From IMG/VR virus record IMGVR_UViG_3300020248_000004, positions 1 through 36,725 of that record: DNA of 36,725 nucleotides, one strand, 5' to 3'. The notes beneath the pieces are model-generated. The model was not told the DNA's origin. It made no database searches and was given only the letters and a program-made list of their open reading frames with translations. The DNA is from a virus (lineage: Duplodnaviria > Caudoviricetes). Each line of letters begins with the position of its first letter. Position 1 is the first letter of the stretch. The position numbers and the translations under genes are program-made. Positions 1 through 36,725 of this stretch are shown one piece after another.

Positions 1-99
1 ATTATCAACTCAATCAACTTCAGCCCAACCTTAATTTTATTACTCCTTGTCCAAGTCTTAAACTCATGGCCTTTACTGTTCATGTGATAGACCATAAGG
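1..99. repeat. End overlap, copy 1 (circular assembly junction)
   Basis: 1-99 matches 36627-36725 except one base (T44 vs C36670). It lies inside the RNA polymerase gene. Confidence 0.95.
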
Positions 100-554
100 T
101 TTCTTTTATAGCCTTCGTTCTTGGTATCTCTGGTATGTTTCTTTATGTTCTTAAAATGTTTAGGGTCTAGCTCTTCAAACTTAGTAAACCTAAGTTCGTC
201 TTCTAGCATCTGCCCTATCTTGAGTGCAGTAGATACAGTTGTCTTTAACTGCGAAGCATTATCTAGTAATACTTTGAAAGCAATAAAGGCAACTACATCT
301 ACGTCTGGGAACTGAGAAAGAAACAAAGCAGAGACAGCTTTGACTCCTACCTTACCGCTAAGACTTTCATCTATATGATCTTGTATTGCTTTGCTTAACT
401 TCTGTAGTCCTGACTCTATGATGTTGCGAGCATAATAGTTCTCGGACTCCCTGCCCTTCTCTATGTTTTTGTTTTGTTTACTGATCTTGTTATAGGCTGA
501 GATGCTAGAGATACTTTGCTCTAGCTCTAGTTGTTTCTTGCTAGGCTCAGTCAT
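1..554 (-). CDS. gp1: T7-like RNA polymerase, N-terminal part (continues at the window end)
   Basis: ATG at 554 (MTEPSKKQLELEQSISSISAYNK...) overlaps the integrase stop and is in frame with ORF 34778-36721 through the end overlap, giving about 800 aa in total. Absent from the ORF track. Confidence 0.92.
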   Translation of the reverse strand, partial: MTEPSKKQLELEQSISSISAYNKISKQNKNIEKGRESENYYARNIIESGLQKLSKAIQDHIDESLSGKVGVKAVSALFLSQFPDVDVVAFIAFKVLLDNASQLKTTVSTALKIGQMLEDELRFTKFEELDPKHFKNIKKHTRDTKNEGYKRNLMVYHMNSKGHEFKTWTRSNKIKVGLKLIELI

Positions 555-1389
555 TTAATACATCAACTACAGAGTGCAAAGCTAAAGGTTGTAAATGTGC
601 ATAAATCATGGTGGTCTTTATGTCCTTATGACCTAGCCAATCTTTAATTAAAAGAAGTGGTACTCCTCTTTGTGCAAGCCTTGAGCCACAGGTATGTCGG
701 CATAAATGTAGAGTGTAATACTTTTTATCTGCATAACCTAATTCCTCTCTAGCATTTTGCCATACATAATTTAGCCAAGGATAATCAACATCAAATAATT
801 TATCAGTATCATTACAACATTCATAATAAGGTTTTAAAACTTCTTGTACTCTATCTGTCATAGGTACAGCTACAGCTTGTTCATTCTTTCTTTCGTTAAA
901 ATTTATTTGATTATTTTGATAATCAACAAATCTTTTTTCTAATCCTAAAAACTCGTTAACTCTACACCCTATGTCTATCAAACAAGCAACTATATCTCTA
1001 GCCTTTTTTTGTTCATTATCTGATAAATACCAAAGCAATTTTTTTTCCATATCTTTAGTAAGGTAATGTACCTTCTGTTTCTTCTCCTTCAATCTTCTTG
1101 GGAAAGAAACATCTTGTATAAATCCATCTTCAATCATTTCATCCAAGACAGTTTTTAAATAACCTACCTTTGTGTTGGTTACTTGCTTACTATTTTTTCT
1201 TGTAAATCTGTGGTAATCCATCAGCTTTTTTATATGCTGTTTAGTAATTTTATTTACAGGTAAATTACCAATAGCTTTGATGTTGTACTTCATAGCTATC
1301 AAGAAATTTTCGGCTGAATCTTCTCCGTTATACCTTCTCTTGTAGACAAGGTTAGTTGCTTCGGAAAGCGTAGGCATTTTAGTTTTCAT
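547..1389 (-). CDS. int: Tyrosine recombinase / phage integrase
   Basis: Catalytic residues R (GCRVNE), HxxR (HLCRHT), H (LGH) and Y (TMIYAH). Lies just upstream of RNAP as in cyanopodoviruses. Confidence 0.95.
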   Translation of the reverse strand: MKTKMPTLSEATNLVYKRRYNGEDSAENFLIAMKYNIKAIGNLPVNKITKQHIKKLMDYHRFTRKNSKQVTNTKVGYLKTVLDEMIEDGFIQDVSFPRRLKEKKQKVHYLTKDMEKKLLWYLSDNEQKKARDIVACLIDIGCRVNEFLGLEKRFVDYQNNQINFNERKNEQAVAVPMTDRVQEVLKPYYECCNDTDKLFDVDYPWLNYVWQNAREELGYADKKYYTLHLCRHTCGSRLAQRGVPLLLIKDWLGHKDIKTTMIYAHLQPLALHSVVDVLND

Positions 1390-1412
1390 GGTGGTTCCAA
1401 TAGGTAAGTTTA

Positions 1413-1640
1413 TTAGTTGTTGGTCAGGTCTTCAATCATCTGAATGAACCCCTCCCTTCCGTAGTCTTGAGTACGGATTTCATAGGTAGAATATTTCTTG
1501 CCACAAACAAGACAAGTCCGACTCCTCCATATAAAAGGAATCGAACTTTCTTTTGTGCCTATGTTGTGACCTCTAGTGGATAGCCTAGTTTTAGTATTGT
1601 TTACTTTATTGTCTAGGCTACCGCATTTAGTACACTTCAA
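1413..1640 (-). CDS. NrdR-like zinc-ribbon protein (no ATP cone)
   Basis: MKCTKCG...RSRTCLVCGKKYSTYE resembles the NrdR N-terminus (MxCPxC...RRRxCxxCxxRFTTxE). TTG start with GAGGAGG Shine-Dalgarno. Confidence 0.75.
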   Translation of the reverse strand: MKCTKCGSLDNKVNNTKTRLSTRGHNIGTKESSIPFIWRSRTCLVCGKKYSTYEIRTQDYGREGFIQMIEDLTNN

Positions 1641-1765
1641 TCGCTGTCCTCCTCGTCAGTATAGAAACGTAGCTTGACCCCTTCTCCTACAAAGTAATCA
1701 TCTACCTCCCACTCGAAAGGGCAATCATTATCGAGTAGCCACTCGTATAATTTTGATCGGTTCAT
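1637..1765 (-). CDS. Small acidic hypothetical protein, 42 aa
   Basis: Hand-translated MNRSKLYEWLLDNDCPFEWEVDDYFVGEGVKLRFYTDEEDSD. GGAGG SD and 4-nt overlaps with both neighbours. Confidence 0.8.
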   Translation of the reverse strand: MNRSKLYEWLLDNDCPFEWEVDDYFVGEGVKLRFYTDEEDSD

Positions 1766-2172
1766 TGCTGCACCTCCCCATTAGTACATTCTGCAAAGTA
1801 ATGAAAACCTTTTGGTACTTGATCTAAATATTTAAAAAAGTTTTCTACTGTCATTGTGTATTGATCTAACCAATATTCATTAGATTGGTCAAAGTTATAA
1901 TAGTTTTTAACTTCTATTCGATCTGCATAACAATAAAAACAAACCTCCTCAACCTTATGTATTTTTGATGGGTCTTTAACCTCTACATAAAAGTGTGGTT
2001 CTTCTTTTGGATCGTATGATTTTGATTGTACTTGTGGACTGACGTGAAATGTCTCTATTAGTTTCCAATAGTTTCTAAATTTCATACCAATAGTTTCTAG
2101 CTGTTGCTGGTGATCTTTAGTAAGCGTTCCAAAATGCTCTAAAAACCATTCTTTATCAGTTTGTGTTTTCAT
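1762..2172 (-). CDS. Early hypothetical protein, 136 aa
   Basis: ORF coupled to neighbours by ATGA overlaps. Leader GGAGGAACCACA. Confidence 0.85.
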   Translation of the reverse strand: MKTQTDKEWFLEHFGTLTKDHQQQLETIGMKFRNYWKLIETFHVSPQVQSKSYDPKEEPHFYVEVKDPSKIHKVEEVCFYCYADRIEVKNYYNFDQSNEYWLDQYTMTVENFFKYLDQVPKGFHYFAECTNGEVQQ

Positions 2173-2366
2173 TGTGGTTCCTCCGTTTTAATTTGGTTAA
2201 TAGTTTTAATGATTTCTTTTTTGTAGTACTCAATAGTTTGATCTACTAAAAGATTGCCCTCTGAATCAGAGGGCGGAAAGATAGTAAAGTTTCTATCGGT
2301 AAGGCACGCAACCCTATGAAGAATACAATCAAGCTCCATAAGAGTTGCGTGTTTTGATCTAGGCAT
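2169..2366 (-). CDS. Early hypothetical protein, 65 aa (start revised to MPRSKH)
   Basis: ATG at 2366 is preceded by AGGAACC. The longer ORF-track start overlaps a separate small ORF. Confidence 0.7.
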   Translation of the reverse strand: MPRSKHATLMELDCILHRVACLTDRNFTIFPPSDSEGNLLVDQTIEYYKKEIIKTINQIKTEEPQ

Positions 2367-2436
2367 GGTTCCTAAAGTTTTTAATAAAGATATACAAGAG
2401 AGTAGTAAGGCATAGCCAAACAATTAAGGTTGTCAT
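2359..2436 (-). CDS. 25-aa hydrophobic single-TM peptide
   Basis: MTTLIVWLCLTTLLYIFIKNFRNHA. ATGA overlap with the upstream gene, purine-rich SD, and it fills the gap between neighbours. Confidence 0.6.
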   Translation of the reverse strand: MTTLIVWLCLTTLLYIFIKNFRNHA

Positions 2437-2579
2437 TCTTCTTCTCCTGATTCAATATCAGCTAGTGAAGATTCTTGTATTAATGCAAGCGTGTCATTAA
2501 TTGCATCTTCAAATTCTTCTGAATGAGTAAGCCCTAACCCTATGTTGGTTAAGGCATCAAAGTATTCGTAGATGGTCAT
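2433..2579 (-). CDS. Small acidic early protein, 48 aa (start revised to MTIYEYF)
   Basis: ATG at 2579 follows the upstream stop and has a GGGAG SD. Confidence 0.7.
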   Translation of the reverse strand: MTIYEYFDALTNIGLGLTHSEEFEDAINDTLALIQESSLADIESGEEE

Positions 2580-2580
2580 G

Positions 2581-2865
2581 TTAATTTCTCCCTGTCTTGA
2601 TACCTGTAGCCTGCTCAAACTTTGACAAGGCTGTTGGATTCATGCCACCTATATGCCAATAGTGTTGGCCTTTAGGTGTTTCATCTAGCTTCCAATCGTA
2701 AACAGTAAAGTGTTCTTTATCCCATTCAACAGAGACTTTACCGTCTCCGTCTTCTAAGGTTGGCTGGCTGTAAGTTCCTTGTCTTTTATAATCAGGCTCG
2801 CCAAGTGCATTGACTAGCTCGTCATAAGTTGTAAGGGCATAGCCTTGTAAGCATGAAAACATCAT
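2581..2865 (-). CDS. Early hypothetical phage protein, 94 aa
   Basis: ORF with motifs YDELVNALGEP, DGKVSVEW, FTVYDWK and WHIGG, a pattern I recognise from marine phage hypotheticals. Confidence 0.85.
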   Translation of the reverse strand: MMFSCLQGYALTTYDELVNALGEPDYKRQGTYSQPTLEDGDGKVSVEWDKEHFTVYDWKLDETPKGQHYWHIGGMNPTALSKFEQATGIKTGRN

Positions 2866-2922
2866 GATTGTGGTTCCTCAATTAGGTTGATTAATAGCTA
2901 TGAAATAAACATAACTAAATAC

Positions 2923-2951
2923 AGTATGATTTAAGACATAAAAAAAGTCAA
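2923..2951 (-). promoter_or_regulatory. Host sigma70-type promoter
   Basis: TTGACT-N17-CATACT on the minus strand, upstream of the 2865 start. Confidence 0.75.
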
Positions 2952-2992
2952 CCCCCAAACCGCCAAAAGGTAAGTTTATTAGGGTTGACTTT
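2938..2992 (-). terminator. Intrinsic terminator-like hairpin overlapping the -35 box
   Basis: AAAGTCAACCC / GGGTTGACTTT inverted repeat (2944-2954, 2982-2992) running into a T7 tract. The loop is large. Confidence 0.55.
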
Positions 2993-3000
2993 GGTGTTAG

Positions 3001-3372
3001 TTAAGAGACTACTTCTAAAGTTTCAATAAACTTTAATCGTTCACAACCTCTGTATGGATTGTAAATGTCTCCTTTTTTGTAGGCTTCAGACTCTTTGTTT
3101 TGCTTGTCAGCATCAACAAGAGTATATCCATCAAAAGCCCAAGTATTACAGTCAGACATATCATAAATGTTGACTTTGATAACTTGCCAGCCTTTGATAC
3201 CATAGTCACGCTTGGCTTTGCGTACACATCTTGTAGCGTGTACTATGCTTGGATCTTTGCCGATAGACCAAACCCAAGAGCCGTGACTAACTAAAAGAAA
3301 TGCGATTACTTCTTTTTCTTGTTGTGGATACTCAACTTTTTTAGCTGACTTTTTAGTTTTAGTTTTAACCAT
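3001..3372 (-). CDS. Early hypothetical protein, 123 aa
   Basis: ORF with GAACCACA leader motif. Confidence 0.85.
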   Translation of the reverse strand: MVKTKTKKSAKKVEYPQQEKEVIAFLLVSHGSWVWSIGKDPSIVHATRCVRKAKRDYGIKGWQVIKVNIYDMSDCNTWAFDGYTLVDADKQNKESEAYKKGDIYNPYRGCERLKFIETLEVVS

Positions 3373-3414
3373 AATTAATTGTGGTTCTAAGGTTTACAAG
3401 TGAAGGTTTTTGAG

Positions 3415-3450
3415 TCCTTCAGAGAGGGCTAGAAAGCCCTCTAAGAAAGA
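3415..3450 (-). promoter_or_regulatory. Intergenic hairpin, possible RNase III processing site
   Basis: AGAGGGCT-TTCT-AGCCCTCT stem extended by TCTTTC/GAAGGA across a 2x2 internal loop. No U tail. Confidence 0.5.
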
Positions 3451-3456
3451 GTCGGT

Positions 3457-4419
3457 TTACTGTTCACCAATTACAAGATCAGCAGCTTTGACGGCATTTG
3501 AAAATACTTTCATTAGTTGCTGAGATGGTGACTTACTATCTTTGATGTGCTTAGCCCAACTTGATAAGTAAGCTGCGTGATTTTGAGTATTACAAGTAAT
3601 TTGCAACCTATTAGAAATTAAGACGGCTGCAAACTCAGCAGTCATCTCTTCCTGAGGTCTATACTTTCTATACTCATTTAACCATTTTCTGTTAAGCCTA
3701 TCCTTATGACCTGTAGCATGAGCAAACTCATGAGCAAGTGTAGAAAGATAAGCTTCATCATTGGTGAATGATTCTCTCTCTGGCATTACTACTTGGTCAG
3801 TACTGTCCATATAGTAAGCCTGATCTCCCATATGCTGTAAACCATTCTTAAGGTCTTTAGAAAAGATCATTAGACGGTCATGAGCATCTTTGCATCTATC
3901 ACTTAATGGTCTTGTTGACTTTTCGCAATCGACTTTAAAGGATTCAATAATTTTATCTAGCTTGCTTTGTGCTTTTTCATCAAGTCCGACTAAATCAGAG
4001 ATATTAAAAACACTAGCACCTTTGAAGGTTACCTTCATAATAAATTCTTGATTCCCTTCTTTATCTAATTTAGGGCTGCCATCTTCATTCTTAAGGTCTA
4101 TCTTAATAGGATTTGGCCTTAAAATTTTGGCTGCCTTGCTGCCCTTCTTAGGTATGCAATTCAAGTCTTTTTTAGCTTGACCATATCCCACCCATAAAGG
4201 TAATTCTTGACCCCTCAAAGTCTGATACATTTGAAGAATTATAGGATTAGCTCCACTGTAGGCATGACCAGTTAAAAAATTAATATGCCCTTGAGATTGT
4301 GAAGAAGTCCATGGTTTAGACCATACATTGTCTAGTTGCTGATTATCCAATAGCTCCATAAAGTCAGCTAAGATAGCGTCTTCTATTTTTACTGTTGGTT
4401 TTTTTGAAGTGAAAGTCAT
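3457..4419 (-). CDS. ardC: ArdC-like antirestriction protein (ssDNA-binding domain + zincin-like metallopeptidase domain)
   Basis: WSKPW, N..TG..YSG.N, W..Y.QA, KKGSKA, VFN, AYY...D.V.MP..E.F, LAHEFAHATGH..RLNR, EE..AE, NHAAYL.SW. Confidence 0.9.
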   Translation of the reverse strand: MTFTSKKPTVKIEDAILADFMELLDNQQLDNVWSKPWTSSQSQGHINFLTGHAYSGANPIILQMYQTLRGQELPLWVGYGQAKKDLNCIPKKGSKAAKILRPNPIKIDLKNEDGSPKLDKEGNQEFIMKVTFKGASVFNISDLVGLDEKAQSKLDKIIESFKVDCEKSTRPLSDRCKDAHDRLMIFSKDLKNGLQHMGDQAYYMDSTDQVVMPERESFTNDEAYLSTLAHEFAHATGHKDRLNRKWLNEYRKYRPQEEMTAEFAAVLISNRLQITCNTQNHAAYLSSWAKHIKDSKSPSQQLMKVFSNAVKAADLVIGEQ

Positions 4420-4877
4420 TTGTGGTTCTGTGAATTGTGCAGTCGGTTGAACTGCTTGATAATAATATTAATATATATATTACTGTTTTGTTAGGATTGA
4501 TTTATAGATTCTTTGTTATCCCTTAGTATCACTTAAGAAATCCATCTTAACAATTCTGTAACAATACCCCCTCTATCGATAATAAGAAAAGATATACCCC
4601 TATAACCAAAAATTAGCCCAGAATCACCCTAAATAATATAAGATATATTATAAGATCCTAGTTATATCAATGGTTTTGCTTACTAGACTACCTTTTTTTG
4701 TAATTTTTGCGAGGGCTATGGGTAAAATTGCAAAGTATATATACGTATAACCCCTTCAAATTTTTGCTCCTAATTTTTTTTGGGTGTTAATCATGCAGCA
4801 GCAGTCTAAGGGTCCTCTCCCCTAGTGCAATCCTAAGTATATTCTTAGTGTAATCTTAGTGAGTAGATGTTGTTCTT
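4420..4877. other. Non-coding region between terminase and first early gene; probable physical genome ends
   Basis: The only long intergenic region, syntenic with T7 termini, flanked by short imperfect CTTAG/CCTAG-type repeats. Confidence 0.7.
4821..4865. repeat. Four imperfect ~11-bp tandem repeats
   Basis: cctagtgcaat cctaagtatatt cttagtgtaat cttagtgagta. Confidence 0.7.
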
Positions 4878-28725: not shown

Positions 28726-28737
28726 AGTGGTTTTCTT

Positions 28738-31158: not shown

Positions 31159-31187
31159 AAAAATTAAAGAGCTATATCTATATTATA

Positions 31188-31196
31188 TGTTAGTCT
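31188..31196 (+). promoter_or_regulatory. Extended -10 promoter for the candidate antisense sRNA
   Basis: TG-T-TAGTCT. Predicted +1 near A31203, at the base of hairpin 1. Confidence 0.55.
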
Positions 31197-31202
31197 ATAG
31201 AT

Positions 31203-31275
31203 AGCAAGGAGTGGTTACCTTGTTGCAACGCTAAGAAAACCTCAAGGGTGTGGTTCCTCTTGGGGTTTTCTTTAT
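31203..31275 (+). ncRNA. Candidate two-hairpin small RNA with GUGGUU loops
   Basis: Stems 31202-31209/31218-31225 and 31233-31248/31257-31272 pair fully only on the + strand (G-U wobble pairs). Loops are AGUGGUUA and UGUGGUUC, and the 3' end is U-rich. Confidence 0.6.
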
Positions 31276-32006
31276 GGGTTCCAAAGTTTTACTTCACCTG
31301 TATTGTAATCATAATCTCCCTCTCTAAGTATTCTTGTAAGTCTTGCGTTCAAGATAGCATCAGCAATCGTATAACCTTTCTTAGTATATGTCTCCTGTAC
31401 CTTAGACCATAGTGCTTCTTTGGTATCAGGTGTATTGGCTAAAGTCTTTGAAGCAGTAACCATACCCATACCTTTGATACCTAGTATTCCGTCACCTGCA
31501 TCACCAGCCAACGACATCTCAAACCAATGCCTGTCTGCTTTCTTGTTAGTAATATGTTCTATGCAATCATCAGCTATAAGTTTGCAGGGTAGTGTTCTCA
31601 TATCTTTATCAACTGAAACTATTATCGGGTCTTTGTATTTGCCATTGGTAGCAAGCAAACCAAGTACGTCATCTCCTTCTAAATGCTCATAGGCTACAGT
31701 TTCATATACCTCTTTTACTTTTTCTATAACACTTCTAAGTGCAAGTGGTTTGCGTTTACCTATCCTGTTGATCTTGTACTCAGGAAATATCTCATGTCGG
31801 AATGTAGGGTAGGAAGTAAAGCACATAACTATGTCATGCTTACCACTAGCAATACTTCTATAAACATCTAGTCTGTTCTCTATCAGATTAAGTATGTCTC
31901 TTTCATCTGAATGTAATGTATGCTCCCAATCATTCCATCTTGTGTCTTGTTCACAGGCACAGCATGAATTGTAGATCAACCAATCAGCATCAATAAGTAA
32001 AGTCAT
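31272..32006 (-). CDS. gp6: 5'-3' exonuclease (gp6-like)
   Basis: LLIDAD, FR....YK.NR, LEGDDVLG, S.DKD, GD..D...G..G.G. Confidence 0.93.
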   Translation of the reverse strand: MTLLIDADWLIYNSCCACEQDTRWNDWEHTLHSDERDILNLIENRLDVYRSIASGKHDIVMCFTSYPTFRHEIFPEYKINRIGKRKPLALRSVIEKVKEVYETVAYEHLEGDDVLGLLATNGKYKDPIIVSVDKDMRTLPCKLIADDCIEHITNKKADRHWFEMSLAGDAGDGILGIKGMGMVTASKTLANTPDTKEALWSKVQETYTKKGYTIADAILNARLTRILREGDYDYNTGEVKLWNP

Positions 32007-34758: not shown

Positions 34759-34786
34759 ACTATACCTTGATCTCTTGCTATGTAAA
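34759..34786 (-). promoter_or_regulatory. Host sigma70-type promoter upstream of SSB
   Basis: TTTACA-N16-TATAGT. Confidence 0.6.
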
Positions 34787-36725
34787 TATATATGGTGCTG
34801 TCAACACATCTGTAATGTTATAGTCTCCCATATCTAGTGCTGCTGGTAACTTACTTGTATCACTTAGTTGTTGTGTTGTTTGGTGGTATAGATTATCTAG
34901 ATTGTTGTCGCTATAAATGTTAAAAAAACTTTGCTTTACACATTCAATAAACCTTTGAAGTTCACTAGCTGGACTGCCATAGCAATCATGTATTACACAA
35001 AAGTTTTTTAAGTCATGCTTACTAGCTTCTACTAAACTCATGTGACAATGTGCAGCATCAAGACTATGTATATAATTACTAGGAAAACCCTGTGCCTGTC
35101 TGCGTTTATCAACCTTAGTGGTATCTGGTTCAGCTAGACTAAGCCTGACACTTGAGTTACTTAGTTTAGTCTTCACTCTTTTAACATCATTCTTGTAGTA
35201 GTTCTGTTGAACAAGAAACCCTGATGGTGTATGCCAAGAGATAGGTTTATTCTCTTTGTTGAAACATAAAGCTGTAGTCTGCAAGTACTTCAATACCTCA
35301 TAACTTTCTGGGGTTACATACTTAACTGCCTGTTCAATCATGGTTGCCAAATAAAAATTATTCTTAAAATTTTTTGCGATAAAAACATTTTCATTTACAA
35401 AATATTTTTCTATGTAGTTTGCTATTCCAAATGTAGTTGAGTTATATGGAATCATAAGCACAGGTTTCTTTATAAACTTTCTTGTTAACTTATCTTTCTG
35501 TGCATACCAGATTGCAGCCTGTTCAGACTTGTCATACTTCAGTAGCATCAACAGAACATCAAGGATTTGTTTATATAAATCTTGCGGTTCATTAACATTT
35601 TGTAGGTTAACTTTGTTAGCTAAATGTTGATTAGATATAAGACCTGCTATATGTTGGTAACCATTATTCGTACCATCAAGACAGCAAACATGGTGAGATA
35701 TGAAACCTTTATTTAATCCATAGTCTTGAAACATAGCCCACTCTCTGCACCAAGCCAAGAATTGAAATGGCTCTTTTGCTTTACCCCATATATCAACATT
35801 ACCTATCGGGTCTTTATAAACTTCAAGAGCTAGATCAGTTCCTTCTATGTAAGCCCACTCTAATCTTTCCTCATAGGTATGTTTATTAAGACCCCAATGA
35901 TTAGCACCTGCTATGGCTAACCAATTTAAGTCTTGTTTAGTTTTTATCTCTGCACCTTCATGGAATATATGTAGCCCTCTTGCTATATCATTTCCTTGTG
36001 GGTGGAAGTGTGCAGTAAGTGGGTACATACGACCAGTAAAATCAAATTGATAAACGTGATAAAATTTTTCGCCAATATATCTTTTTGCTGTATCAATCAT
36101 TGATAGTATCTGATACCTCTTGACCATATTCTGATGGTTCATATCATGGATTAAACCAGCTAAATATTTCCATTCTTTTCTTGCTTCCTTATCAGTAGCA
36201 ATATTAATTGGTTTTGTTGGCAGTTCTGCAAGCTCCCTATCTATCAATGAACCAACCTCTATTCGTTCCTCCCAACAGTATTCAAGAGTTTCTAGTACAA
36301 ATTGATTTACACCCCAAGCTGTCTGACTCGCCAGAGTTAACGCTTTCAGACTTGTTGTTAAGTCTTCTCCTCGTAGTGTGTTTAGGTAGTCTTGATTAGA
36401 ACTCTTAATTGCTTTTGTTTTTAGTCTGTCTGTAAAGTAACCACCGCTATCTATTGAAGTCCACTCTCTTGGTACATCAAGACAAGGTAGGTAGATAGGA
36501 AAGGCAGCAATCCTATTTGACCTACCCTGCCTTATATATTTCATAAACCTATCAGTAAAGACAACATAACTTGTAGTTGCTTTGCCTACCTTCTTGTTTA
36601 TCATGTTGACCATATTTATTTTTATCATTATCAACTCAATCAACTTCAGCCCAACCTTAATTTTATTACCCCTTGTCCAAGTCTTAAACTCATGGCCTTT
36701 ACTGTTCATGTGATAGACCATAAGG
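34778..36725 (-). CDS. gp1: T7-like RNA polymerase, C-terminal part
   Basis: DxxGR (DFTGRMY), PQGND, motif A (LDGTNNGYQH), motif B (RKFIKKPVLMIPY), NYIHSLDA, motif C (IHDCYG). Confidence 0.97.
   Translation of the reverse strand, partial: LMVYHMNSKGHEFKTWTRGNKIKVGLKLIELIMIKINMVNMINKKVGKATTSYVVFTDRFMKYIRQGRSNRIAAFPIYLPCLDVPREWTSIDSGGYFTDRLKTKAIKSSNQDYLNTLRGEDLTTSLKALTLASQTAWGVNQFVLETLEYCWEERIEVGSLIDRELAELPTKPINIATDKEARKEWKYLAGLIHDMNHQNMVKRYQILSMIDTAKRYIGEKFYHVYQFDFTGRMYPLTAHFHPQGNDIARGLHIFHEGAEIKTKQDLNWLAIAGANHWGLNKHTYEERLEWAYIEGTDLALEVYKDPIGNVDIWGKAKEPFQFLAWCREWAMFQDYGLNKGFISHHVCCLDGTNNGYQHIAGLISNQHLANKVNLQNVNEPQDLYKQILDVLLMLLKYDKSEQAAIWYAQKDKLTRKFIKKPVLMIPYNSTTFGIANYIEKYFVNENVFIAKNFKNNFYLATMIEQAVKYVTPESYEVLKYLQTTALCFNKENKPISWHTPSGFLVQQNYYKNDVKRVKTKLSNSSVRLSLAEPDTTKVDKRRQAQGFPSNYIHSLDAAHCHMSLVEASKHDLKNFCVIHDCYGSPASELQRFIECVKQSFFNIYSDNNLDNLYHQTTQQLSDTSKLPAALDMGDYNITDVLTAPYIFT
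36627..36725. repeat. End overlap, copy 2
   Basis: Matches 1-99 with one mismatch. Confidence 0.95.

What the first reader, a model, noticed from the sequence alone, without database searches (positions are those of the whole stretch)
1391..4428. GAACCAC motif at the start codons of early genes
Seen on the mRNA strand: GGAACCAC-C-ATG (int, 1391-1398), GAGGAACCACA-ATG (2173-2183), GAGGAACCACA-ATC-ATG (2869-2879), GAACCACA-N7-ATG (3380-3387), GAACCACA-A-ATG (ardC, 4421-4428), and a partial AGGAACC-ATG (2366-2373). By rough base-composition estimate this 7-mer should occur about once per strand by chance, yet five full copies lie within about 15 nt of starts. It is not a Shine-Dalgarno sequence. 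Inference: a shared post-transcriptional operator defining an early regulon.
Basis: seen in the sequence. Interest (0 to 1): 0.75.

Follow-up and report, generated by a model that had tools for sequence, protein, structure and literature searches.

The report
Phage RNA mirrors early-gene start tags
A T7-like virus that likely infects the ocean cyanobacterium Prochlorococcus carries the same 7-letter tag just before five early genes and, far away on the other strand, a predicted ~75-base RNA whose loop is the tag's exact complement; tag and loop change together across related phages, so one small RNA likely switches these early genes off as a group, though no transcript has been seen.

Summary
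The motif is real: GAACCAC lies within 20 nt of 5 of 9 early starts and 0 of 27 other starts. The window is a whole P-SCSP2-like (MPP-C) cyanopodovirus genome. On the + strand this region looks like a ~75-nt RNA gene (~31200-31273): a conserved -10-like box, two covarying hairpins with loops AGUGGUUA and GUGUGGUU, and a U tail. It is complementary over 8-11 nt to six early start regions. Relatives use five different tags (GAACCAC, GAGTCAC, GAGCCAC, GGAGCT, AGGAGA). In 35 of 37 distinct contigs the loop matches that phage's own commonest tag; two are discordant. Neither the RNA-polymerase specificity loop nor the Zn-ribbon protein tracks the tag. Best reading: a phage-encoded trans-acting antisense RNA that blocks translation of integrase, ArdC and other early genes, and may slow RNA polymerase synthesis by coupling. 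It would act as an early shut-off or immunity switch, working like P1/P7 c4 RNA but aimed at a whole gene block. Expression and repression are inferred, not shown. The cultured phage P-SCSP2 carries the system, so it can be tested directly.

The parts
4421..4428 (-). Tag GAACCACA, 1 nt before the ardC ATG (heptamer 2 nt before); 8-nt complement to RNA loop 2
   Evidence: ArdC by PF08401/PF18818
3380..3387 (-). Tag GAACCACA, 7 nt before the ATG of ORF 3001-3372; predicted largely paired in its own leader
2869..2879 (-). Extended tag GAGGAACCACA (overlaps SD-like GAGGA) before ORF 2581-2865; 11-nt complement to the RNA
2366..2373 (-). Partial tag AGGAACC plus the A of the ATG of ORF 2169-2366; 8-nt complement
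2173..2183 (-). Extended tag GAGGAACCACA directly before the ATG of ORF 1762-2172; 11-nt complement
1994..2001 (-). Extra GAACCACA inside ORF 1762-2172 (coding sequence; chance or secondary site)
1391..1398 (-). Tag GGAACCAC, 1 nt before the integrase ATG; 8-nt complement
547..1389 (-). Tyrosine integrase; its last 8 nt overlap the RNA polymerase start (ATG at 554; the gene continues across the window ends into 34778-36721), so translational coupling is possible
1413..1640 (-). Stand-alone NrdR-like Zn-ribbon ORF; tested as the protein reader of the tag, does not track it
31186..31191 (+). -10-like hexamer TATGTT of the predicted RNA; TATGTT/TATGCT/CATGCT found upstream in 61 of 62 distinct RNA bodies, at two adjacent spacings
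31200..31273 (+). Predicted ~75-nt trans-acting small RNA (ends inferred), convergent with the exonuclease gene
31203..31224 (+). 5' hairpin; loop AGUGGUUA (31210-31217), core GTGGTT kept in 61 of 62 RNA bodies; complementary to AACCAC(U)
31233..31272 (+). 3' terminator-like hairpin; loop GUGUGGUU (31248-31255) and seed UGUGGUUCCUC (31249-31259), the lineage-specific complement of the tag
28726..28732 (-). AACCACT directly before the scaffold-gene ATG; 7-nt complement to loop 1, common in relatives; possible late target
31272..32006 (-). T7 gp6-like exonuclease whose stop codon abuts the RNA's 3' hairpin (context)

Best explanation
The GAACCAC tags are likely the target sites of a predicted phage-encoded small RNA (~31200-31273, + strand) whose exposed loop would pair with the ribosome-landing region of several early mRNAs and likely block their translation together. 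Shown by sequence and comparison: the tags sit at early starts; the loop complements them over 8-11 nt; the stems covary; the + strand is favoured; tag and loop switch in concert across five alleles. Inferred: host RNA polymerase transcribes the RNA from the -10-like box; pairing starts at the loop without a chaperone; pairing over positions about -12 to -1 keeps the 30S subunit off; silencing the integrase start also lowers RNA polymerase synthesis through the 8-nt overlap. The most likely role is to shut early genes off once the middle of the genome has entered the cell, and to keep a resident or (pseudo)lysogenic phage quiet and immune to same-tag superinfection. The tag alleles would then be immunity groups.
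For: Early-start enrichment 5 of 9 vs 0 of 27. Watson-Crick helices of 8-11 nt with six early starts against at most 7 with 27 other starts; duplex energies -14.2 vs -8.3 kcal/mol on average, p=0.002. Loop word equals the commonest early tag in 32 of 33 loci, permutation maximum 25, and in 35 of 37 distinct contigs, including 6 of 7 found afterwards by an RNA-pattern search. Blind test: the top early 6-mer is complementary to the phage's own loop in 24 of 37, versus 40 of 800 for other-allele loops. Each of the 14 loop rows pairs best with its own class of leaders. Otherwise identical integrase leaders differ only inside the tag (L080 vs L006). Finer matches: L192's loop and leaders share a changed base; a middle hairpin in P-SCSP2 and L108 matches their own tag-less ardC leader over 10 and 13 nt. 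Stems: 96.6% of cells paired, 8 of 17 pairs with changes on both sides, covariation score 0.41 vs at most 0.23 when slid. The + strand folds better in 60 of 60 units; G-U pairs 119 vs 32 in 56 distinct 3' hairpins. P-SCSP1u and P-SSP7, which per PMC9860041 or recall share the MED4 host, and P-RSP2 lack both tag and RNA. Most Prochlorococcus strains lack Hfq (PMC2518516, abstract), which fits loop-initiated pairing.
Against: No transcript, strand or level shown; only assembled contigs were available. Two of 37 contigs are discordant: L254 has seed GAGTCAC with AGGAGA leaders and cannot pair; L089 has seed GAACCAC with GAGTCAC leaders, and its loop type pairs only at about -8 kcal/mol. These may be recombinants or chimeric assemblies, or matching may be dispensable. 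Contigs are related, so the real evidence is five alleles, not 37 independent events; the tag words were chosen after looking, and AGGAGA is SD-like and was only scored when the seed was of that type. L111 has only 1 cognate site. A test for wobble-tolerant variants was inconclusive (7 tolerated vs 3 breaking changes at central positions). The consensus scanner finds neither the promoter nor the terminator. The 3380-3387 site is predicted mostly paired. Repression rather than stabilisation is not shown.
Confidence: 0.72

Rival explanations
1. Same RNA-RNA pairing, opposite outcome: the RNA protects or activates early mRNAs (for example by shielding them from RNase E) rather than blocking translation.
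For: Antisense protection from RNase E during phage infection is reported in Prochlorococcus (PMC3113571, title and abstract start only). All co-variation data fit any pairing model.
Against: Targets cover about -12 to -1 of the start codon, inside the 30S footprint (established knowledge); 78 of 118 sites lie 1 nt from the ATG. The RNA gene lies about 10 kb into a T7-like genome, so it would appear after early expression (inference).
Confidence: 0.1
2. A phage protein (RegA/RegB-like repressor or nuclease) reads the tag on the mRNA strand, and the hairpin loops after the exonuclease gene are a decoy or processing site on that strand.
For: On the mRNA strand both loops display AACCAC. A protein whose specificity changed would also give concerted switching.
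Against: Strand asymmetry favours the opposite strand (60 of 60 units; G-U 119 vs 32), with a conserved -10-like box on it. The Zn ribbon does not track the tag: 73% identical to GGAGCT-type phages, 31-46% to three GAACCAC-type ones. ORF 2169-2366 has a near-identical N-terminus in an AGGAGA-type phage. One protein would have to jump between five unlike words. Not every small ORF was tested.
Confidence: 0.08
3. The tag is simply a good, unstructured translation-start context spread by recombination between gene cassettes; the hairpin is a bidirectional terminator that captured the word.
For: Early genes do swap behind a few fixed leaders (near-copy of the integrase leader at 2963-2982). C-rich signals just upstream of starts occur in cyanobacteria (PMC5397173, passages). 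Discordant contigs L089 and L254 exist.
Against: It does not explain why a distant loop equals each lineage's own word in five alleles, why non-homologous leaders change together, or why P-SCSP1u and P-SSP7 lack the word. Cassette shuffling probably explains how new genes gain the tag, not why it exists.
Confidence: 0.07
4. The heptamer is the -11 to -5 core of the phage RNA polymerase promoter (it resembles T7's GACTCAC, recalled).
For: Shape GAnnCAC followed by 4 nt resembling TATA; T7 has promoter phi6.5 right after gene 6.
Against: The specificity loop aligned to T7 739-770 does not track the word: GAACCAC goes with at least three loop types, GAGTCAC with two, and the GGAGCT-type loop is close to P-SCSP2's (quick tree). 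No conserved flanks. At the usual spacing the start site would fall after the ATG.
Confidence: 0.03

Closest known systems
c4 antisense RNA of phages P1/P7 (review PMC12197685, section 7 read; PMC8198154, passages)
   Same: Small phage RNA with complementary elements in loops, pairing around a ribosome-binding site to block translation; sequence differences underlie heteroimmunity.
   Different: c4 acts on the icd/ant message of its own operon and backs up a protein repressor. Here the RNA is encoded far away on the other strand, targets at least six early starts through a shared tag, and no CI-like repressor was found by Pfam or PHROGs. No Rfam match.
Start-Associated Sequences (SAS/ESAS) of Cluster K mycobacteriophages (PMC3203893, passages read)
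   Same: Asymmetric, one-orientation motif a few bases before start codons of non-structural genes, overlapping an SD core; the authors left open a host or phage RNA or protein partner.
   Different: SAS is a 13-bp GGGATAGGAGCCC with inverted-repeat extensions, unrelated in sequence and host, and no partner was identified there. Here a complementary, co-varying RNA candidate is present.
SviR of the Vibrio cholerae PLE satellite (bioRxiv 10.1101/2022.04.08.487710, abstract and outline only); VpdS, PreS, sar (table of PMC12197685)
   Same: Trans-acting small RNAs of mobile elements that base-pair with mRNAs; SviR has several targets and lowers translation of some.
   Different: No shared start-codon tag is described in what I read; they act on another genome, a host gene or one antirepressor.
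MPP-C cyanopodovirus P-SCSP2 (OM416780; PMC9860041, passages and section 5 read)
   Same: RNA polymerase 74% and capsid 98% identical; same gene order, no DNA polymerase, integrase present; carries both tag and RNA.
   Different: The paper's main text has no occurrence of 'motif' or 'promoter'. It reports erratic lysis timing and suggests transient integration, with no regulator named.

Membership tests
c4 antisense RNA family (P1/P7) | Match to a curated Rfam covariance model | tested here: not met
   No credible Rfam 15 hit in the window at E<=1 (only a snoRNA at E=0.51 elsewhere) or in 5 relative loci.
c4 antisense RNA family (P1/P7) | Encoded in the same operon as its icd/ant target | tested here: not met
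   RNA lies between the exonuclease and late genes on the opposite strand; no ant or icd hit.
c4 antisense RNA family (P1/P7) | Loop-exposed elements complementary to the target's ribosome-binding region | tested here: met
   Loops predicted mostly unpaired; 8-11-nt complements to six starts. Prediction only.
c4 antisense RNA family (P1/P7) | Sequence variants define immunity groups | not testable with these tools
   Five co-varying alleles seen; immunity needs infection assays.
Trans-encoded base-pairing bacterial/phage sRNA (general kind) | Own promoter and intrinsic terminator in an intergenic region | tested here: inconclusive
   Conserved -10-like box in 61 of 62 bodies and a U-tailed hairpin, but the consensus scanner found neither.
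Trans-encoded base-pairing bacterial/phage sRNA (general kind) | Conserved structure with compensatory changes on one strand | tested here: met
Trans-encoded base-pairing bacterial/phage sRNA (general kind) | Discrete transcript detected | not testable with these tools
   Only unstranded contigs were offered.
Trans-encoded base-pairing bacterial/phage sRNA (general kind) | Seed-dependent regulation of targets | not testable with these tools
   Needs reporters with compensatory mutations.
Cluster K SAS | 13-bp GGGATAGGAGCCC consensus, with or without 17-bp inverted repeats | tested here: not met
   Leaders read show no such consensus; the resemblance is positional only.
T7-type phage RNA polymerase promoter | Promoter word co-varies with the polymerase specificity loop | tested here: not met
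MPP-C cyanopodovirus, P-SCSP2-like | T7-like gene order without DNA polymerase, close to P-SCSP2 | tested here: met

The most novel reading that the evidence does not exclude
These abundant T7-like ocean phages have replaced a protein repressor with a programmable RNA master switch. Early genes join the regulon by landing behind a tagged leader, the RNA gains modular extra hairpins whose loops add new targets (its own ardC, perhaps rival phage or host starts), and seed-tag alleles form RNA-defined immunity groups that govern pseudolysogeny and superinfection in Prochlorococcus.
Probability: 0.35. Interest if true: 0.92.

Novelty: new variant of a known kind. Interest (0 to 1): 0.8.

Why it matters
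T7-like phages are textbook cases of timing by polymerase switching, with no RNA regulator of a gene class that I could find in print. How integrase-bearing marine T7-like phages hold back lysis is open; P-SCSP2 lyses anywhere from ten hours to days after infection for unknown reasons (PMC9860041). This gives a concrete candidate switch in a cultured phage-host pair, with natural seed/tag alleles as built-in specificity controls. It also suggests an answer to the SAS question left open in mycobacteriophages: look for a complementary RNA. Earlier unchecked notes of this scan report the same layout in unrelated phages, so the design may be widespread, which lowers the uniqueness of this case but raises the value of a testable one.

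Tried and rejected
Rfam: nothing credible. ARAGORN: no tRNA. Promoter/terminator scanner: nothing at the RNA locus; early region no more than chance. RNA polymerase promoter idea rejected (the tree is the quick one, the careful search did not finish). Zn-ribbon as reader rejected. ESM Atlas for ORF 2169-2366: only unnamed clusters under 0.9. Metatranscriptomes: 4 of 19 listed runs laid; contigs cover the locus in X5, X7 and X10 but give no strand, ends or level; contig ends near 31271-31274 in X5 and X13 may reflect the insertion polymorphism there, so they are no evidence. Wobble-variant test inconclusive. Targets for middle loops other than the ardC match were not found among the fetched loci (part's output was cut). 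Prophage search in GTDB genomes gave one phage contig in a MAG and no host junction seen. No Prochlorococcus genome could be reached, so tag frequency at host starts is untested. One search used three misplaced starts and one doubtful ORF; enrichment and mean duplex numbers are from the corrected. Literature: nine searches found no description of this motif or RNA. In PMC10690425 (10,000 candidate viral RNAs) 6 supplementary files had no hit for the loop-1 sequence, but files 1, 2 and 4 could not be searched, so the RNA may be listed there as an unannotated candidate.
Full report
What the window is. The window is a whole T7-like phage genome with a short terminal assembly overlap; the RNA polymerase gene starts at 554 and continues across the ends. 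PHROGs and Pfam give ArdC, integrase, RNA polymerase, SSB, endonuclease, primase/helicase, exonuclease, T7-type virion genes and terminase, with no DNA polymerase. The nearest isolate is Prochlorococcus phage P-SCSP2 (RNA polymerase 73.6%, capsid 97.9%), an MPP-C cyanopodovirus of MED4. Its paper (PMC9860041; passages and section 5 read) reports erratic lysis and suggests transient integration. The host of the window's phage is inferred from this kinship.

The observation. GAACCAC occurs 8 times against 2.55 expected, 0 of 100 shuffles reaching 8. It is within 20 nt of 5 of 9 early starts and 0 of 27 other starts, p=3e-4; shuffled leaders give at most 2. Across relatives fetched up to then, 118 of 175 distinct contexts precede an ORF within 12 nt, 78 at 1 nt, before 64 different N-termini; the opposite strand has only 31 contexts. 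Early genes are interchangeable cassettes behind a few leaders that end in the tag.

The missed copy. The match at 31250-31256 sits in a hairpin loop right after the exonuclease stop, beside a second hairpin with a related loop. Read on the + strand, the region folds at -30.6 versus -22.4 kcal/mol. All 60 distinct units from relatives fold better on that strand, and 56 distinct 3' hairpins hold 119 G-U pairs on it versus 32 on the mRNA strand. In an alignment of 26 units (the window and 25 of the 60, leaving out those with middle inserts or long loops), 96.6% of cells pair, 8 of 17 pairs change on both sides, and sliding the partners lowers the score from 0.41 to at most 0.23. A TATGTT/TATGCT/CATGCT hexamer lies upstream in 61 of 62 distinct bodies at two adjacent spacings, although the consensus scanner calls neither promoter nor terminator. 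I read this as a ~75-nt RNA, 31200-31273, with two open loops. Its 3' loop and stem form Watson-Crick helices of 11 nt with the starts at 2865 and 2172, and 8 nt with ardC, 3372, 2366 and the integrase; the best of 27 other starts is the scaffold gene with 7 nt to loop 1.

Co-variation. Sister lineages use other words at the same slots, and the 3' loop changes with them: GAACCAC, GAGTCAC, GAGCCAC, GGAGCT(AAC) and AGGAGA. Among loci holding RNA polymerase, at least 1.5 kb of early region and the RNA, the loop word was the commonest early tag in 32 of 33, with a permutation maximum of 25 (the one AGGAGA locus was left out of that count). After two RNA-pattern scans (64 loci, and 119 of about 150 stretches) it was 35 of 37 distinct contigs, 6 of 7 new ones. 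A blind version gave 24 of 37 against 40 of 800 for non-cognate loops. A duplex matrix of 14 chosen loci is block-diagonal. Integrase leaders of L080 and L006 are identical except two bases in the tag. L192 shows a matched change in loop and leaders. P-SCSP2, L106 and L108 have an extra middle hairpin matching the ardC leader, which lacks the tag, over 10-13 nt, with the 13-nt variant matching in L108. On a quick RNA-polymerase tree GAACCAC and GAGTCAC each appear in two clades. Against this: L254 cannot pair and L089 pairs weakly; contigs are kin, so five alleles are the true units; words were picked after inspection; the wobble test was inconclusive.

Rivals tested. The polymerase specificity loop does not follow the word, nor does the Zn-ribbon protein. 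P-SCSP1u, P-RSP2, P-SSP7 and HTVC011P lack the tag at the early starts examined and give no model hit, apart from a weak E=0.048 match inside the HTVC011P DNA polymerase gene, which argues against a host-wide start signal. The host genome itself could not be examined. Cassette recombination is real and likely spreads the tag, but cannot make a distant loop complementary in five alleles.

Mechanism. Shown: tags, complementarity, structure covariation, strand asymmetry, concerted change. Inferred: transcription by host polymerase; loop-initiated pairing without Hfq (most Prochlorococcus strains lack it; PMC2518516, abstract and passages); ribosome occlusion; reduced RNA polymerase synthesis through the 8-nt integrase overlap; early shut-off after progressive genome entry (T7 behaviour, own knowledge) and homo-immunity. 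I put repression by this RNA at 0.72, stabilisation at 0.10, a protein reader at 0.08, plain leader context at 0.07 and a promoter at 0.03. Metatranscriptome contigs cover the locus but show nothing about strand or ends.

Comparison with what is known. It works like c4 RNA of P1/P7 (PMC12197685 section 7) but fails the family tests: no Rfam match, other position, many targets. The tags resemble Cluster K SAS in placement (PMC3203893 passages), for which a partner was left open. SviR is a multi-target precedent (abstract). Nine searches found no account of this motif or RNA; three supplements of PMC10690425 could not be searched. After I had reached this reading (note), earlier scan notes showed the same layout in Bacteroidota, lake and soil phages; they are unchecked, one partly fell, and none found was in a cyanopodovirus. 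They are not support, but they mean the design is not unique to this phage.

Verdict. Observation confirmed; interpretation partly supported and sharpened to a specific RNA partner. New variant of a known kind, interest 0.8, because a cultured phage-host pair and natural alleles make it directly testable.

Noticed in passing
L051, L060, L077, L084, L135, L137, L138, L142, L149, L150, L157, L171, L177-L179, L187: between the exonuclease stop and the RNA: A second antisense unit of about 150-400 nt, absent from the window: its own TATGCT/TATGTT box, several shuffled ~55-65-nt structured modules and, in most, a terminator-like hairpin whose loop contains CAU. No Rfam match in the loci scanned. 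Looks like a modular small-RNA array.
   Followed up: partly
L045, L102-L108, L048, L131, L142, L157, L181, L185, L299, L306, L307: Variable middle hairpins inserted into the RNA; several loops present CAU plus an upstream complement, as if aimed at other start codons. Only the ardC match was found; L306's loop is also complementary to a 9-nt stretch inside the RNA polymerase gene.
   Followed up: partly
window 31182-31191: A TATAAT on the - strand overlaps the + strand TATGTT box: possible divergent, mutually exclusive promoters for late genes and the RNA.
   Followed up: no
window 28726-28732: AACCACT directly before the scaffold ATG is common in relatives whatever their seed and complements the near-invariant loop 1; a possible brake on capsid assembly.
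   Followed up: partly
window 2963-2982: A 19-of-20 copy of the integrase leader with no tag or ORF behind it, likely a cassette remnant.
   Followed up: no
window 3410-3450 and 2260-2280: Strong hairpins between early genes, possibly RNase III processing sites as in the T7 early mRNA (recalled).
   Followed up: no
window 1413-1640: Stand-alone NrdR-type Zn ribbon (PF22811) just before the integrase, present in all 19 relatives examined and highly variable; function open.
   Followed up: partly
L089 and L254: Seed and early tags are mismatched; natural recombinants (possible immunity escape) or chimeric assemblies.
   Followed up: partly
window 15-99 and 36641-36725: The window's ends overlap by about 85 nt with a mismatch; an assembly feature of a circular contig that splits the RNA polymerase gene.
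   Followed up: yes
L192 (NHHK01000004.1): A contig of this phage group, with RNA and tags, sits inside the MAG 'bacterium TMED161', probably mis-binned.
   Followed up: partly
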